From positions 8,635 through 72,634 of IMG/VR virus record IMGVR_UViG_3300037484_000333: a stretch of 64,000 bases of DNA; one strand, given 5' to 3'. Made by a program: the position numbers and the translations under genes. The DNA comes from a virus (taxonomy: Duplodnaviria > Caudoviricetes). Shown here piece by piece: positions 40,231 to 44,462 of this stretch. The notes beneath the pieces are model-generated. The model saw only the letters and a list, made by a program, of their open reading frames with translations. It was not told where the DNA came from and did not search any database. Each line of letters starts with the position of its first letter. Position 1 is the stretch's first letter.

Positions 40231-40671
40231 TTAATCGCCTCCGATAATGCGCCTAGTGACGATGACGGTGGCTCCATCAGGTGCCTGGTCGTCGAGGTAG
40301 GCCTGGCGACTGTTCAGGCGGAGGTCACCATCGGCGTCGAGACCAGCGGCTTCCAAGGCGTCGCCGACAGTACCGTTATCCGGAATGGCGAACTCCCTGA
40401 CTTCTCCACCGACCTCTCCAACCTTCACGACCTTCTGCCCACCACGGGGCTGGGTCATGATCAGCACAGAGTCGCCGTTGCTCAGGGGGTGCCGGTCGCT
40501 ACTGATGCGCTCTTGCTGCCCCGCGTGGGTGACCCGTACCTCATCGTTGCCCCAAGATTCGCTGGCAGCCGAGAACAGGTCAGCCACCACAGAACCGGGC
40601 AATAGGGTATAGTTCTTCCGCTCACCACCGATGCGAGCGATAGCCACGTCGATCGTCGTCTCGTTGACCAC
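40231..40671 (-). CDS. Tandem di-ubiquitin-like (beta-grasp) precursor, ...PRGG|QK...IIGG|D
   Basis: Two alignable ~70-aa beta-grasp units, each ending GG; SD AAGGAG plus GTG at 40671; in an operon with E1/JAB/E2. Confidence 0.8.
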   Translation of the reverse strand: MVNETTIDVAIARIGGERKNYTLLPGSVVADLFSAASESWGNDEVRVTHAGQQERISSDRHPLSNGDSVLIMTQPRGGQKVVKVGEVGGEVREFAIPDNGTVGDALEAAGLDADGDLRLNSRQAYLDDQAPDGATVIVTRRIIGGD

Positions 40672-40719
40672 GATCCACTCCTTTCTGGTACTTTGCAGTA
40701 CCAACTAAACTAACAACTA

Positions 40720-41211
40720 CTATTGATGGCAGTTACAACTGCAATTGAAGCCATCTACACAATGGCAGGGGCAGTCGCAGGTATCGTCGTCGTAGCACCC
40801 ACACCTCTCACAGGTGGGCTCCTCTTCCTCCTCCTCTTCATCCTCGTCGTCAGTTGGGTTGGGAAGTTCTCCACGAGGTTCCAGACCATCCGACCGACCA
40901 CCACCTACTGGGAAGCTGGCTGAGTCTGCGTCAGTTCGATTCCACACCCTCAGCACGTCAAGATGACGCAGTAGGGTACCAGTACAGACGTACCGCCCAC
41001 CCACACTGAGACGGTCACCACTGTATAGGATGCCCAGCCTCTCCAGTATAGTGCTAATCCAGGCGTCCCGCCAAGGCATGACCAACTCTATAGTGGGCTG
41101 GTTCAGGCGCGCCACGTAGACTGTGATCATCCTATCGTCGTTGGGCCTATCGTTAGGCCTGTACTGCATGGCTGGACGGGCTGCAGTATAAGGTGCAGGA
41201 TCATTCGTCAT
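40720..41211 (-). CDS. Ubl-like domain plus acidic linker plus 10-Cys metal-binding tail
   Basis: ITVYVARLNQPTIEL...ISTILERLGI...LRHLDVLRV resembles the di-Ubl units; FPVGGG; DDEDEEEEEEE; CERCGC...CDCPCHC...CSCNCHQ. Confidence 0.55.
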   Translation of the reverse strand: MTNDPAPYTAARPAMQYRPNDRPNDDRMITVYVARLNQPTIELVMPWRDAWISTILERLGILYSGDRLSVGGRYVCTGTLLRHLDVLRVWNRTDADSASFPVGGGRSDGLEPRGELPNPTDDEDEEEEEEEPTCERCGCYDDDTCDCPCHCVDGFNCSCNCHQ

Positions 41212-41881
41212 TACCAACTCCCCATGAGTTGACTATGCTGCGAAGGGTCTTGAGATTCTGTATGTACTCTCCCCAACACTCCTCCTTCCTAGCGAACGCG
41301 GCTATCCTGCTGGTGATAACACCTCCAATCACAAAGGGACAGTAGATCACAGACGAGTTGGTACATGGCCTACCGTCCTTACCCTGGTCACCATATAGTG
41401 AGCCTTCATACTTGTCTACGTGGTCTGGGTCACAGGGATTGACTGCGTAGACCCTTAAGTCTTCCCCATCCATACGCCCATCGACGTACAGGGGGTAGTT
41501 AGGGTCATACTTCACAGCCTGCCAGATTTCACTCCTGACAGCCATTGAGTCAACCCCAGAGATGATGACCCCAGGTCGCAGTTTGGTATCAGGGAACCTC
41601 CCATCAACTGCCAGTATGTTGACTGATGATAGATGAGCCAGCTCACGCGCCAACAGAACTACCTTGAGTTCGCCGACTCCATCTGGTGGGTACAAGACCT
41701 GGTTAGGTACGTTGTGGGCCTCTACCCTGTCGAAGTCGATGACCATTAGGTCCTTTACACCCATCTTGGCGACTGCTAAGGCGGTAGGCGAACCTATGCC
41801 ACCTGCCCCGACTATGGTGACTGGAAAGTCGAGTAGGTCAACCTGGACTACGTCTTGTTGCCTCGAATAGTCTATTGCCAA
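41201..41881 (-). CDS. ThiF/MoeB/E1-like activating enzyme
   Basis: YSRQ, VGAGGIGS, DFDRVEAHNVPNQ, SGVDSM..R, VDGRM, candidate catalytic PCT. Confidence 0.9.
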   Translation of the reverse strand: MAIDYSRQQDVVQVDLLDFPVTIVGAGGIGSPTALAVAKMGVKDLMVIDFDRVEAHNVPNQVLYPPDGVGELKVVLLARELAHLSSVNILAVDGRFPDTKLRPGVIISGVDSMAVRSEIWQAVKYDPNYPLYVDGRMDGEDLRVYAVNPCDPDHVDKYEGSLYGDQGKDGRPCTNSSVIYCPFVIGGVITSRIAAFARKEECWGEYIQNLKTLRSIVNSWGVGNDE

Positions 41882-41891
41882 GTACTACCTC

Positions 41892-42710
41892 CTAATGTTT
41901 GTCAAGGAAGGTCTGAAACGGGTCGTCACTGTCACGTCGCTTACCCTTCTTGCCTTTGTTACGTGGGTTACCCCGCTTGTAGGCATCGGCCTTGCTAGTT
42001 GACCTATCTATGCGGATGACCTCTCCATCCACACAGTTAGCGGCCACTTTGGCTAGCGCAGCCTCCACGTCTCTGGCCTTACGGGTATTAGGGTGGAGGC
42101 CAGAGCTGTAGTCGTCCTTAGATACGTTAGCCGAAATACTCTTCCCAATCGGGCCAAAAGGGGTTTGAGGTATTACCACCTTCCGCTCCCTGACCTTCTG
42201 CTTGACCTCCTCGGCACACTCCTCGTCCACATCCATTGCGGGGTATAGAACAGTCAGGTCAAACTCTTCCTCGACGGCAGACGTACCGCCCAGGCATTTG
42301 GGTAGCGTGGCTATGCCGTATACCGATCCCTTCCAGTCGTTAGCCTTATTCCCTACCAGGTAGGCGAACCAAGGAACAGTCTGCCCTACCATTTGTTCCA
42401 TAGTGGTACGGTCTGTCTGGCTCCAGAAGCAGGCAGTGTGGGCGTGGCTATGCCACCAAAGGCGCAGCTCAGTAGGGTCACCGCCTTCCTCCATCCACTG
42501 CTGGATGTACTCGGCTATTGGAGTGGTATCTAGCTCAGTACCACCTGCACTACACTCCTGGTCAAATAGGACGACCTTGGTTATTACTAACCTTCCGTCT
42601 ATCTCCTTTACGTGGCCGAGGCCAGATACTTCCCCAGTGGCGTGCTTGATGTAGGATCGGAGCCTAGAGTATGGCTCCAACTCTATGTATACGTTGGCTT
42701 TGGTTGCCAA
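41892..42710 (-). CDS. JAB/MPN+ isopeptidase
   Basis: GEVSGLG...WWHSHAHTACFWSQTD matches E-xn-H-x-H-x7-S-x2-D. Confidence 0.9.
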   Translation of the reverse strand: MATKANVYIELEPYSRLRSYIKHATGEVSGLGHVKEIDGRLVITKVVLFDQECSAGGTELDTTPIAEYIQQWMEEGGDPTELRLWWHSHAHTACFWSQTDRTTMEQMVGQTVPWFAYLVGNKANDWKGSVYGIATLPKCLGGTSAVEEEFDLTVLYPAMDVDEECAEEVKQKVRERKVVIPQTPFGPIGKSISANVSKDDYSSGLHPNTRKARDVEAALAKVAANCVDGEVIRIDRSTSKADAYKRGNPRNKGKKGKRRDSDDPFQTFLDKH

Positions 42711-42721
42711 AACTTCGCCTC

Positions 42722-44170
42722 CTATCGAGTGACAGTAGTTACTGTAGTTCCCGCGTCTCCATTATGATATACAAACCCTGCTACTCGTTCAATGTCATCC
42801 CAACGCAGTGTCGTCCCAGTGTTGGGATCAACCGCCTCCGCAGGTTCGAGAGCAACTAACTCTTCCAACGCCTCGTCGTAGTCCATGACTGTTGGGGCTT
42901 TCCCTTCCTTCTTAGGTTCCACTCCCACAGGATTCCAGTGTGCGCGCAACCTAGTTATGTATATACCGTCATGTTCCTTCTCGTTGATGTGGTTGAGGAA
43001 CTTGACCAGGACTGCCAAGGCGGTAGGAAAGTCCCCCGCGCCTATCAGCTTGGTTACTGGAGTCTGTAGGTTGCCGAGACAGACGTATGCCCCACCATCA
43101 TAGACGTGAGGGTGTTGAATGTCGTTGTAGAAGCCTTCACTCGTACCCTTCATCACTTCCTTGGCCCGCTGGTTTATTATCCTGATGCGGCCATTGGTGC
43201 CAATAGTAATACGGAAGGCTCCAAGGTCCCACGTATCGCCGTCAGCCTCAACTATGATAGTGTGCGTTTCAGCCACCACTGCTGAACCAGCAATGACTAC
43301 GTTCTTTATACCCTCAACAGCCTTGAGACGGACAAACTCGTCCTTGAGTTCTTCTTCCTTCTTGTCTGGCTCCTCGTAAGCCCTGAGCTGGCGGATATAC
43401 TTGGCCTCGTCTTGCATCCTTCCAACTAGGGCTTCTTGGTAGGAAACTATGTCATTACGGGTAGACTGCAACTGGCCAACCAAATTCTGTTTCTGAGCCT
43501 CATACCCCTTAGTACGAAGTTCGATGTAGAGATTCTCATAGTCAGGAGGTGGAGGTGGAACAGCCACTGCCCTGTTTGACGGTAGCTGCCTGAGTAGTTC
43601 ATGCCACCACCAACCACTAATGCCAACCGCAAATAGGTACAGTACTCTACTATCAATGTAGGCAGCTACCACCTCACCATCTACCTTGATTAGGTGATAG
43701 TCATCGCCCCAGTTCTCAGGGTGGGTATAGGTAGGAGTTGTAGGCCTTCTAACGTTGTCCCGAAGCCTGTTAACACCCAATCCGGAGTCGACCATCACAG
43801 TCCAGCCCCTATGGGTGGACATGACCCCTCTAAAGTCGCTCCTATAGACGTTGAACGGACGTCCAAAGTATGGAGCCCACAAACCCAGCCAACGACGTAT
43901 TGTTGGTAGGCTATACCCAACCCACCCTCGACCATGAGCCTGTACTGCATCTGGTATTGTTAAGGCTACTATACTACGGTTAGTGTTGTATTCAGGCCAA
44001 TACTCAAGGAGACGCAGACCTAACGACCTCCGAACTGCTGCCAAGTGCCTGTAACTAACGGCAATCCCTGTGTTGGCCCCTGCCGTCGCAGTCGGTCTAT
44101 CAGACGGATCACAAGGTATGTCAGGAAGGTCTGCAAGAGTGAAGCCCTCAAGGTAGTAGTAATCAGCCAT
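42722..44170 (-). CDS. Prokaryotic E2-like conjugating enzyme with long N-terminal/coiled-coil extension
   Basis: DLGAFRITI...QHPHVYDGGAYVCLGN...LAVLVKFL (UBC-like HPx-V...CL); SD GAGGAGG plus ATG at 44170. Confidence 0.75.
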   Translation of the reverse strand: MADYYYLEGFTLADLPDIPCDPSDRPTATAGANTGIAVSYRHLAAVRRSLGLRLLEYWPEYNTNRSIVALTIPDAVQAHGRGWVGYSLPTIRRWLGLWAPYFGRPFNVYRSDFRGVMSTHRGWTVMVDSGLGVNRLRDNVRRPTTPTYTHPENWGDDYHLIKVDGEVVAAYIDSRVLYLFAVGISGWWWHELLRQLPSNRAVAVPPPPPDYENLYIELRTKGYEAQKQNLVGQLQSTRNDIVSYQEALVGRMQDEAKYIRQLRAYEEPDKKEEELKDEFVRLKAVEGIKNVVIAGSAVVAETHTIIVEADGDTWDLGAFRITIGTNGRIRIINQRAKEVMKGTSEGFYNDIQHPHVYDGGAYVCLGNLQTPVTKLIGAGDFPTALAVLVKFLNHINEKEHDGIYITRLRAHWNPVGVEPKKEGKAPTVMDYDEALEELVALEPAEAVDPNTGTTLRWDDIERVAGFVYHNGDAGTTVTTVTR

Positions 44171-44462
44171 CAGTTTCCTCCTCGGAGTCCCAAACCATGA
44201 GGATTTCACCATTACTGGAGTGGCTATCCCACAGTTCGTCGGCAGACTTAACGAACTCGTCGGCTTCGGACGGGTCCTCCAAGCTGATAGCCATGTAGCA
44301 GTCTGAGACCCACTGGACGTAGTCTTCCTCGTTCATTAAGATTACCATCTTGGGAGATAGTGGTTCTAGGAATAACTCTTGCAGGGCTACCCTCAGCTCG
44401 TCACAGATCAACATGGAGTCTGAAACCTGCCGCCATATGATTGAGGCTGATGCTACGTTCAC
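44163..44462 (-). CDS. Hypothetical acidic protein
   Basis: Coupled to the E2 gene. Confidence 0.4.
   Translation of the reverse strand: MNVASASIIWRQVSDSMLICDELRVALQELFLEPLSPKMVILMNEEDYVQWVSDCYMAISLEDPSEADEFVKSADELWDSHSSNGEILMVWDSEEETDG

What the first reader, a model, noticed from the sequence alone, without database searches (positions are those of the whole stretch)
40231..40671. Polyubiquitin-style precursor: two head-to-tail Ubls, each ending GG, capped by one extra residue
The protein reads Ubl1(...IMTQPRGG)-Ubl2(QKVVKVG...TRRIIGG)-D-stop. This mirrors eukaryotic polyubiquitin genes, where tandem units are cut after each GG and the last unit carries a blocking residue. The two units are divergent, so JAB processing could release two distinct modifiers from one gene. 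Alternatively only the terminal D is removed and a di-Ubl is conjugated.
Basis: partly seen in the sequence, partly recalled or inferred. Interest (0 to 1): 0.8.

Follow-up and report, generated by a model that had tools for sequence, protein, structure and literature searches.

The report
Phage tandem ubiquitin-like protein precursor
An uncultured tailed phage encodes two ubiquitin-like units fused head to tail, each keeping its own Gly-Gly tail, beside its own E2-like, JAB protease and E1 genes; relatives carry one to four such units, so it looks like a viral counterpart of a polyubiquitin gene, but cleavage has not been shown.

Summary
On the minus strand, 40231-40671 encodes a 146-aa protein: unit 1 ends PRGG (residue 78), unit 2 ends IIGG (145), then Asp146 and the stop.

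AlphaFold gives two confident beta-grasp domains joined by a weaker linker that holds the internal GG. The best fold matches are ISG15, polyubiquitin and linear di-ubiquitin.

The gene is the last of an operon that also encodes:
- an E2-like protein (invariant PH...C-L-G),
- a JAMM/JAB peptidase with an invariant catalytic motif,
- a minimal ThiF-type E1 with one invariant Cys.

A full-library search found 110 relatives with 1, 2, 3 or 4 units. 107 of 109 internal unit ends keep the tail G-[N/G/A], including 19 of 21 where neighbouring units share 50% identity or less. The E2-JAB-E1-Ubl cassette is complete in 21 of 26 related loci of at least 6 kb. In three distinct loci the only tail is internal, so it needs cutting to be exposed.

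Comparative evidence therefore favours polyubiquitin-style processing. Conjugation of the whole di-Ubl, as in ISG15 and BilA, is not excluded. Targets are unknown.

This scan has already reported similar phage cassettes in other genomes. I found no paper describing them.

The parts
40231..40671 (-). Tandem di-Ubl gene: 146 aa plus stop, GTG start
   Evidence: ORF and sequence. AlphaFold2 pLDDT 92.3 with two beta-grasp domains. Foldseek top hits are ISG15, polyubiquitin and linear di-Ub. 110 homologs in the full-library search.
40678..40683 (-). Shine-Dalgarno site AAGGAG, 6 nt before the GTG start
   Evidence: Read directly from the sequence.
40438..40671 (-). Ubl unit 1 (residues 1-78), ending PRGG
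   Evidence: Unit HMM 42 bits, 2.8e-14. Beta-grasp at residues 7-72 of the model.
40438..40449 (-). Internal tail P75-R76-G77-G78; the proposed internal JAB cleavage site lies after G78
   Evidence: G77 is at least 90% conserved in 51 two-unit relatives. 107 of 109 internal unit ends keep G-[N/G/A]. QPRGGQ is identical in the nearest homolog. The tail lies in the lower-pLDDT linker. Cleavage itself is inferred, not shown.
40237..40437 (-). Ubl unit 2 (residues 79-145), ending IIGG
   Evidence: Unit HMM 76 bits, 6.8e-25. G144 is invariant in alignment A4.
40234..40236 (-). Capping residue Asp146, followed by TAA at 40231-40233
   Evidence: Sequence. The nearest homolog ends exactly at GG. Family caps: 0 residues in 42 proteins, 1 in 34, 2-4 in 21.
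40720..41217 (-). 165-aa ORF between E1 and the di-Ubl: weak Ubl-like N-terminus, FPVGGG, a poly-acidic run and a Cys-rich tail. The true start is probably downstream of the TTG, which overlaps E1.
   Evidence: Sequence. Weak unit-HMM match: 7.4 bits, E 0.002 in a database of only 8 sequences. Not found with alignment A1 at E<=1. No Pfam, PHROG or NCBIfam hit. No p165 relative among ORFs of five viral loci, L002-L006; the later loci were not searched with it.
41201..41881 (-). Minimal E1 (ThiF family, 226 aa), GAGGIG nucleotide loop, invariant Cys173
   Evidence: Pfam ThiF 6e-20. PADLOC Cap2 E1-E2 models down to 3e-12 and BilD 4.6e-5. Cys173 is invariant in 29 family members.
41892..42710 (-). 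JAMM/JAB metallopeptidase (272 aa)
   Evidence: Pfam Prok-JAB 4.8e-5, 23.7 bits, just under the 25-bit cut-off. E27, H87, S88, H89, S97 and D100 (E...HxHx7Sx2D) are invariant in 23 family members.
42722..44212 (-). E2-like protein: variable N-terminus, coiled coil, and a C-terminal UBC/RWD-like domain at about residues 283-432 (42917-43366). The public gene call starts later and gives 366 aa.
   Evidence: Profile of the C-terminal domain against PDB: 27 of 31 hits are UBC E2 enzymes (best E 0.013), aligning hPHv..G..CLG on HPNv..G.iCL. P368, H369 and C378 are invariant in 23 members. AlphaFold model is poor overall (pLDDT 42.5) but reaches 60-73 for most of 285-415; its best fold match there is the KNL1 RWD domain, Z 6.5. 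Gene call of 366 aa.

Best explanation
The gene encodes a two-unit ubiquitin-like (ThiS/MoaD-type beta-grasp) precursor. It is the modifier of a phage-borne E2-like / JAB / E1 / Ubl cassette.

Proposed mechanism; steps 1 to 4 are inferred, none is shown:
1. The JAMM/JAB peptidase removes Asp146, exposing the IIGG tail. It most likely also cuts after the internal PRGG (G78), releasing two different single-domain modifiers.
2. The minimal ThiF-type E1 adenylates each exposed Gly carboxylate and probably forms a thioester on its invariant Cys173.
3. The Ubl passes to the invariant Cys378 of the E2-like domain.
4. The Ubl is attached to amino groups of targets that are still unknown. These could be host or phage proteins. 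The cassette sits among replication and nucleotide-metabolism genes.

What is shown: the anatomy, the family-wide conservation of each unit's tail, the catalytic motifs and the conserved gene neighbourhood.
For: Structure of the protein:
- Two confident beta-grasp domains with a less confident junction that holds the GG. pTM is 0.56 although pLDDT is 92, so the domains have no fixed mutual orientation.
- Fold matches are polyubiquitin, linear di-Ub and ISG15.

Family behaviour:
- 110 relatives have 1 (30), 2 (53), 3 (19) or 4 (6) units.
- Later units begin where the first unit begins after its Met, so the units are truly head to tail with little or no spacer.
- The internal tail G-[N/G/A] is kept in 107 of 109 cases, and in 19 of 21 where adjacent units share 50% identity or less. 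Recent duplication alone therefore does not explain it.
- Cap length after the last tail is 0-4 residues in 97 of 108 proteins.

Loci that point to single units as the working entity:
- Some loci replace a fused gene by several adjacent Ubl genes (L013, L016, L025, L038, L047).
- In L007, L008/L030 and L029 the only Ubl gene has its single KGN tail INTERNALLY. It is followed by a tail-less Ubl-like domain and a helical extension, so the tail can only be exposed by endoproteolysis.

Neighbourhood and enzymes:
- The cassette is complete in 21 of 26 related loci of at least 6 kb. The other five are cut at a contig or locus end.
- The JAB catalytic motif is invariant, as are the E1 and E2-like cysteines.

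Precedent: BilC, a JAB, removes one residue after the reactive Gly of BilA and also cleaves a BilA-GFP fusion (PMC10557695).
Against: - There is no biochemical evidence for cleavage at either site in this family.
- In this protein the two tails differ at -3/-4 (P-R against I-I). In most relatives all tails of one protein are identical, so one E1 and one JAB may not serve both tails here.
- Unit 1 is the more divergent unit (42 against 76 bits, with a 4-residue insertion relative to the nearest homolog). This is what a specialised, non-activated N-terminal domain of an ISG15-like di-Ubl would look like.
- Four relatives (P0037, P0086, P0097, P0104) have lost the first unit's tail. At least some family members are therefore used as uncut di-Ubls.
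- The multi-beta-grasp Ubls of Bil and Bub operons are treated as whole proteins in the one study I read (PMC11601603).
- The exact scissile bond is uncertain. Only the first Gly of the tail is invariant, and BilC cuts directly after that Gly.
Confidence: 0.5

Rival explanations
1. ISG15/BilA-like di-Ubl. Only the terminal Asp is trimmed by the JAB, and the intact two-domain protein is activated at IIGG and conjugated as one unit. The internal PRGG is a flexible linker kept for structural reasons, or for later editing.
For: - ISG15 is the top Foldseek hit.
- Type I Bil Ubls overwhelmingly have two beta-grasp domains, and Bil/Bub Ubls with 2-3 domains are handled as whole proteins (PMC11601603).
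- Here the units are only 22% identical and have different tails, as expected for specialised domains.
- Four relatives lack the internal tail altogether (P0037, P0086, P0097, P0104).
Against: - The internal tail is retained in 107 of 109 unit ends, and in 19 of 21 diverged pairs.
- QPRGGQ is the best-conserved stretch between this protein and its 50%-identical homolog.
- Unit number varies from 1 to 4, and fused genes alternate with separate single-unit genes in the same cassette.
- Some relatives have their only tail at an internal position (L007, L008, L029).
- From general knowledge, not tested here: the N-terminal domain of ISG15 has no Gly-Gly tail.
Confidence: 0.33
2. Sulfur-carrier system. 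The units are ThiS/MoaD-type carriers that the ThiF-like E1 thiocarboxylates for the biosynthesis of a thio-cofactor or a modified nucleoside. The JAB only trims the tail, as in the CysO/Mec+ and QbsE/QbsD pathways.
For: - Homolog units match Pfam ThiS and NCBIfam ThiS/MoaD models.
- The E1's best named matches are ThiF and MoeB.
- Database annotators call related phage E1s 'thiamine biosynthesis protein'.
Against: - An E2-like protein with an invariant Cys and a PH motif is a fixed member of the cassette. Sulfur-carrier pathways do not use one (PMC10557695).
- The searches here turned up no rhodanese, cysteine desulfurase or cofactor-synthase gene next to the cassette.
- All NCBIfam ThiF/MoeB scores are far below the equivalog cut-offs (58 against 275 bits).
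- Most relatives end in Gly-Asn and come as 2-4 tandem units, which is not known for sulfur carriers.
Confidence: 0.07
3. A non-conjugated beta-grasp protein, for example an adaptor or decoy that binds the host's own Bil-, Bub- or CBASS-type E1/E2/JAB enzymes. The tails would serve as bait and not as reactive ends.
For: Bacterial Ubl pathways act against phages (PMC11601603), so a phage decoy is conceivable. No target or conjugate is known for this family.
Against: The Ubl almost always travels with its own E1, JAB and E2-like genes, whose catalytic residues are invariant. That is hard to explain if nothing is activated.
Confidence: 0.05

Closest known systems
Eukaryotic polyubiquitin genes (e.g. 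UBI4, UBB, UBC) and ubiquitin-fusion genes
   Same: Head-to-tail beta-grasp units, each with its own Gly tail. Variable unit number (1-4 in this family). The last unit is followed by a short variable cap. Family members also occur as tailed units fused to an unrelated C-terminal part.
   Different: The units are ThiS/MoaD-like, not ubiquitin. The two units here share only 22% identity. The presumed processing enzyme is a JAMM metalloprotease encoded next door, not a cysteine DUB. The majority tail is Gly-Asn. Processing has not been shown.
Bil (Bacterial ISG15-like) systems, BilA-D, types I and II (operon type 6d of Iyer et al. 2006)
   Same: Four separate genes for Ubl, E2, JAB and E1. Bil Ubls have 1-3 beta-grasp domains. 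The JAB BilC pre-processes the Ubl by removing as little as one residue after the reactive Gly (PMC10557695; PMC11601603).
   Different: This cassette is encoded by phages, not by a bacterial defence island. PADLOC Bil models give only a weak BilD hit for the E1 (4.6e-5) and nothing for the Ubl, E2-like protein or JAB. The E1 is minimal (226 aa). The E2-like domain has a histidine before the Cys, as eukaryotic HPN does, whereas type 6d E2s have theirs downstream (PMC1779556). It sits at the end of a long protein with a coiled coil. Every unit keeps a tail.
Bub / '6E' operons with polyUbl (Iyer et al. 2006 type 6e; Ubl3 of Gong et al. 2024)
   Same: One to three tandem beta-grasp domains in an E1/E2/JAB operon. 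Iyer et al. already called this 'reminiscent of eukaryotic poly-ubiquitin' in 2006.
   Different: In Bub operons the E1 is fused to a JAB or an E2, and a DUF6527 protease is present. Ubl3 acts as an intact protein that forms Ca2+-dependent dimers and filaments. Here the enzymes are separate genes.
ISG15 (vertebrate di-Ubl)
   Same: Two tandem beta-grasp domains and a C-terminal Gly-Gly. It is the top Foldseek hit.
   Different: From general knowledge: ISG15 is conjugated whole and its N-terminal domain has no Gly-Gly tail. Here the internal tail is conserved.
PRTRC cassettes of plasmids and ICEs (NCBIfam TIGR03734-03742)
   Same: ThiF-type E1 together with JAB-, E2- and Ubl-like proteins on mobile elements. 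This lead came from earlier scan notes.
   Different: The E1 scores 31.5 bits against TIGR03736, whose cut-off is 144.75. No PRTRC model matches the Ubl, the JAB or the E2-like protein.
ThiS/MoaD sulfur carriers with JAB trimming (CysO/Mec+, QbsE/QbsD)
   Same: A ThiS-family fold, a Gly-Gly tail with extra residues removed by a JAB, and a ThiF-type adenylating enzyme.
   Different: Those pathways have no E2 and no tandem units, and they sit among cofactor or cysteine biosynthesis genes.

Membership tests
Ubiquitin-like beta-grasp modifiers (ThiS/MoaD clan) | Beta-grasp fold in each unit | tested here: met
   AlphaFold2 pLDDT 92.3 with two beta-grasp domains. Foldseek hits to di-ubiquitin and ISG15 at E about 1e-8. 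Homolog units hit Pfam ThiS above its cut-off.
Ubiquitin-like beta-grasp modifiers (ThiS/MoaD clan) | Flexible C-terminal tail ending in Gly (Gly-Gly or Gly-x) | tested here: met
   PRGG at residue 78 and IIGG at 145. G144 is invariant and G77 at least 90% conserved. Both tails lie in lower-pLDDT segments.
Polyubiquitin-type precursor | Head-to-tail units, each with a complete tail, and a variable unit number among homologs | tested here: met
   1-4 units per protein. 107 of 109 internal ends keep the tail.
Polyubiquitin-type precursor | Short capping extension after the last unit | tested here: met
   Asp146 here. The family has 0-4 extra residues in 97 of 108 proteins.
Polyubiquitin-type precursor | Endoproteolytic release of single units | not testable with these tools
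E1-E2-DUB Ubl conjugation system | Adenylating E1 with a nucleotide-binding loop and a catalytic Cys | tested here: met
   Pfam ThiF 6e-20. GAGGIG loop. Cys173 is invariant in 29 members. Activity was not tested.
E1-E2-DUB Ubl conjugation system | UBC-fold E2 with a catalytic Cys preceded by an HPN-like motif | tested here: inconclusive
   In the profile search against PDB, 27 of 31 hits are UBC E2s, but the best E is only 0.013. PH...C-L-G is invariant. The AlphaFold model is weak and its best match is an RWD domain at Z 6.5.
E1-E2-DUB Ubl conjugation system | JAMM motif E...HxHx7Sx2D | tested here: met
   Invariant in 23 members. The Pfam Prok-JAB score of 23.7 bits is just under the 25-bit cut-off.
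Bil system (BilABCD) | Matches to the BilA, BilB, BilC and BilD family models | tested here: not met
   PADLOC gives only BilD at 4.6e-5 for the E1, and nothing for the Ubl, E2-like protein or JAB.
PRTRC cassette | Scores above the NCBIfam cut-offs for the PRTRC proteins | tested here: not met
   TIGR03736 scores 31.5 bits against a cut-off of 144.75. There are no other PRTRC hits.
ThiS/ThiF or MoaD/MoeB sulfur-transfer pathway | Equivalog-level match of the E1, and a sulfur-donor or cofactor-synthase gene context | tested here: not met
   The best ThiF model scores 57.9 bits against a cut-off of 275. The neighbours are an E2-like protein and a JAB, and no biosynthetic genes were found.

The most novel reading that the evidence does not exclude
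Tailed phages run their own ubiquitin-like conjugation pathway, and its modifier genes are organised like eukaryotic ubiquitin genes: mono-, poly- and fusion precursors cut by a dedicated JAMM protease. In this phage one gene would yield two different modifiers (tails PRGG and IIGG), perhaps for different targets. That would make it a prokaryotic-virus analogue of polyubiquitin processing, and possibly a phage tool against host defence.
Probability: 0.45. Interest if true: 0.85.

Novelty: new variant of a known kind. Interest (0 to 1): 0.68.

Why it matters
Bacterial Ubl conjugation (Bil, Bub, CBASS Cap2/Cap3) is currently understood as cellular machinery, mostly directed against phages. A conserved and apparently complete E2-JAB-E1-Ubl cassette carried by many uncultured phages would show that the virus side uses the same chemistry.

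The polyubiquitin-like layout is a feature so far regarded as eukaryotic: tandem units that each keep a reactive tail, short caps and fusion precursors. The question is directly testable with four recombinant proteins. If confirmed, it would give a minimal, self-contained Ubl system (226-aa E1) and a new class of phage host-takeover or counter-defence functions.

In this particular gene the two units are strongly diverged, so it is a good case for asking whether one precursor feeds two distinct modifiers.

Tried and rejected
- The look-up of encoding contigs. The genomic context of the nearest homolog P0002 could therefore not be seen.
- Complex prediction. I had planned to test the JAB against unit 1 plus the junction; the job did not run.

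Searches that found nothing:
- Word-index protein search found only the proteins themselves, for the di-Ubl and for the E2-like protein.
- megablast of 10 kb, and tblastn of the di-Ubl, of a typical KIKGN Ubl (P0028) and of the E2 domain, against 50,697 deposited phage genomes: no match. I could not name a cultured phage with this exact cassette.
- The E1 alone has distant relatives (28-37% identity) in Flavobacterium, Xanthomonas, Salmonella and other phages. In Flavobacterium phage FpV4 I confirmed only an E1 and a JAB, with no family-type Ubl or E2-like gene.
- The search for related loci with the E1, with P0002, with alignment A7, and with the too-diverse alignment A1 gave nothing.
- PADLOC, PHROGs and NCBIfam gave no family for the Ubl, the 165-aa ORF or the E2-like protein.
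- Five literature searches found no paper describing a phage-borne cassette of this type. The library lacks most subscription journals, so this is not proof of absence.

Weak results:
- The whole-protein AlphaFold model of the E2-like protein was poor (pLDDT 42.5). The fold list was dominated by coiled coils, and only the RWD hit at Z 6.5 is relevant, and it is weak.
- ESM Atlas returned only unnamed, mostly viral clusters.

Rejected idea: an internal translation start for unit 2. It would truncate strand 1.

Full report
WHAT IS THERE

The window is part of a 72.6-kb IMG/VR virus record with direct terminal repeats. It is a tailed phage: it has a large terminase subunit, a portal protein, a family-A DNA polymerase and a helicase.

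The finding lies on the minus strand. window:40231-40671:- starts at a GTG, 6 nt after an AAGGAG site. It encodes 146 residues that read ...IMTQPRGG(78) QKVVKVG...TRRIIGG(145) D(146) stop.

TWO REAL UBIQUITIN-LIKE UNITS

- A unit HMM built from homologs matches residues 16-90 (42 bits) and 90-156 (76 bits) of the longer 157-aa ORF.
- AlphaFold2 on a 51-sequence alignment gives mean pLDDT 92.3 and two beta-grasp domains (7-72 and 79-139). Confidence dips at the junction and at the C-terminal tail. pTM is only 0.56, so the model gives no fixed orientation between the domains.
- Foldseek's best PDB matches are ISG15, a polyubiquitin fragment and many M1-linked di-ubiquitins.
- The two units share only 22% identity.
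- Homolog units match Pfam ThiS (PF02597) above its threshold, so the fold belongs to the ThiS/MoaD branch of the ubiquitin superfamily.

THE OPERON

Upstream on the same strand, with gaps of about 10 nt or small overlaps, lie four genes.

1. A 496-aa protein. Its C-terminal 150 residues give a profile whose PDB hits are almost all UBC E2 enzymes: 27 of 31, best E 0.013. The conserved hPHv..G..CLG aligns on HPNv..G.iCL. Pro368, His369 and Cys378 are invariant in 23 relatives. The structural model is weak, and its best match in that region is an RWD (E2-like) domain at Z 6.5. I call it E2-like, with membership not fully proven.
2. A JAMM/JAB peptidase. Its E...HSHx7Sx2D motif is invariant in 23 relatives.
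3. A 226-aa ThiF-type E1 with one invariant cysteine, Cys173.
4. A 165-aa ORF with a weak Ubl-like N-terminus, an acidic run and a Cys-rich tail. No relative of it turned up among the ORFs of five viral loci, L002-L006.

THE FAMILY

Word-index searches found nothing. A full HMMER scan of 1.8 billion cluster representatives found 110 relatives. Their lengths fall into classes of about 70, 140, 210 and 285 residues.

- Splitting them with the unit HMM gives 30 one-unit, 53 two-unit, 19 three-unit and 6 four-unit proteins.
- Almost every unit, internal or terminal, ends in x-[K/R]-G-[N/G/A]. Terminal tails are GN in 74 proteins, GG in 22 and GA in 9.
- The last tail is followed by 0 residues (42 proteins), 1 (34), 2-4 (21) or more than 4 (8).
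- Later units begin where the first unit begins after its Met, so the arrangement is truly head to tail.

- Internal tails are kept in 107 of 109 internal unit ends, and in 19 of 21 cases where neighbouring units share 50% identity or less.
- In the only close homolog (P0002, 50% identity), QPRGGQ is the longest identical run. That protein ends exactly at IIGG, without a cap.

GENE CONTEXT ELSEWHERE

- Of 26 loci of at least 6 kb, 21 carry E2-like, JAB and E1 genes next to the Ubl. The other five are cut at a contig or locus end.
- Contigs range up to 185 and 209 kb, so the cassette occurs in jumbo phages as well as mid-sized ones.
- Several loci carry two to four separate Ubl genes in a row instead of, or beside, a fused one (L013, L016, L025, L038, L047).
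- In L007, L008/L030 and L029 the only Ubl gene has its single KGN tail in the middle. It is followed by a tail-less Ubl-like domain and a helical extension. If the E1 needs an exposed Gly tail, these proteins must be cut internally. This is the strongest comparative argument for endoproteolysis in the family, although it is still an inference.

COMPARISON WITH WHAT IS KNOWN

- Tandem Ubl domains in bacterial E1/E2/JAB operons were noted in 2006 and called reminiscent of polyubiquitin (type 6e, now Bub; PMC1779556).
[quoted passage not shown] There they are treated as whole proteins, and some form Ca2+-dependent filaments (PMC11601603).
- A JAB that removes a single residue after the reactive Gly, and that cleaves a Ubl-GFP fusion, has been shown for E. 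aridi BilC (PMC10557695). This gives the Asp146 cap a direct precedent.

The present cassette is not a Bil, PRTRC or CBASS member by the available models. It differs in five ways:
- it is phage-borne;
- its E1 is minimal;
- its E2-like domain has a His before the Cys, as in eukaryotic HPN;
- that domain sits at the end of a long protein with a coiled coil;
- every unit keeps a tail.

I found no paper on such a phage cassette in the searchable library. Earlier notes of this scan report similar cassettes in at least 13 other genomes.

VERDICT

The polyubiquitin-style reading is the best-supported one on comparative grounds (about 0.5). It is unproven, and for this particular protein it is weakened by the different tails (PRGG against IIGG) and the divergent first unit, both of which also fit an ISG15-like uncut di-Ubl (about 0.33). 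A sulfur-carrier role is unlikely because an E2-like protein with an invariant Cys is a fixed partner and no biosynthetic genes are nearby.

The position of the scissile bond is open. Only the first Gly of the tail is invariant, and BilC cuts right after the equivalent Gly. The targets and the benefit to the phage are unknown. The cassette sits in the replication and nucleotide-metabolism region, which suggests an early or middle function such as host takeover or counter-defence, but that is speculation.

Noticed in passing
window 40720-41217 (-): 165-aa ORF between E1 and the di-Ubl. It has a weak Ubl-like N-terminus (unit HMM 7.4 bits), then FPVGGG, a run of Asp/Glu and a tail with 10 Cys. 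No relative of it was found among the ORFs of five viral loci, L002-L006. One distant relative of the Ubl (P0084) also has a Cys-rich stretch right after its KGN tail.
   Followed up: partly
L007:6995-7609, L008:6010-6984 (same as L030), L029:4577-5245: Ubl genes in which the only Gly-Asn tail is internal: tailed unit, then a tail-less Ubl-like domain, then a helical or coiled-coil extension. These look like ubiquitin-fusion precursors and would need endoproteolysis to yield a modifier.
   Followed up: partly
Family-wide (P0003-P0110; loci L002-L050): The majority tail is Gly-Asn, not Gly-Gly (74 of 105 terminal tails). From memory, other E1-like enzymes (MccB of microcin C7) act on a C-terminal Asn through a succinimide. 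Whether Asn here is the reactive end or the first cap residue is unknown.
   Followed up: no
L002/L003/L026: 5142-5462 and 5716-6288: In a 185-kb phage the JAB gene is split into two ORFs about 250 nt apart, and both halves match the family. This could be a frameshift, an insertion or an intron.
   Followed up: no
L005: 9623-9892, 11844-13736, 13742-14200: This phage contig carries, about 2.5 kb downstream of the first cassette, a second Ubl-like gene (ending PEGN) and a second JAB-containing protein (630 aa) followed by an E1 gene. A 786-aa P-loop ATPase-like ORF lies between the first cassette and this second Ubl-like gene.
   Followed up: no
L028:7001-7519: A two-unit Ubl whose units, both ending KIKGN, are separated by a 28-residue spacer made almost entirely of Asp, Glu and Gly.
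   Followed up: no
window 42722-44212 (-): The public gene call for the E2-like protein is 366 aa (74% of the 496-aa ORF), so the true start may be near residue 131. The N-terminal 280 residues are poorly conserved and poorly modelled.
   Followed up: partly
L051 (Flavobacterium phage FpV4, NC_041872.1 58986-69555): A cultured phage has a distant E1 (annotated 'thiamine biosynthesis protein') directly preceded by a JAB-like gene, between primase/UDG and an exonuclease. No family-type Ubl or E2-like gene was detected. It may be a related but different cassette.
   Followed up: partly
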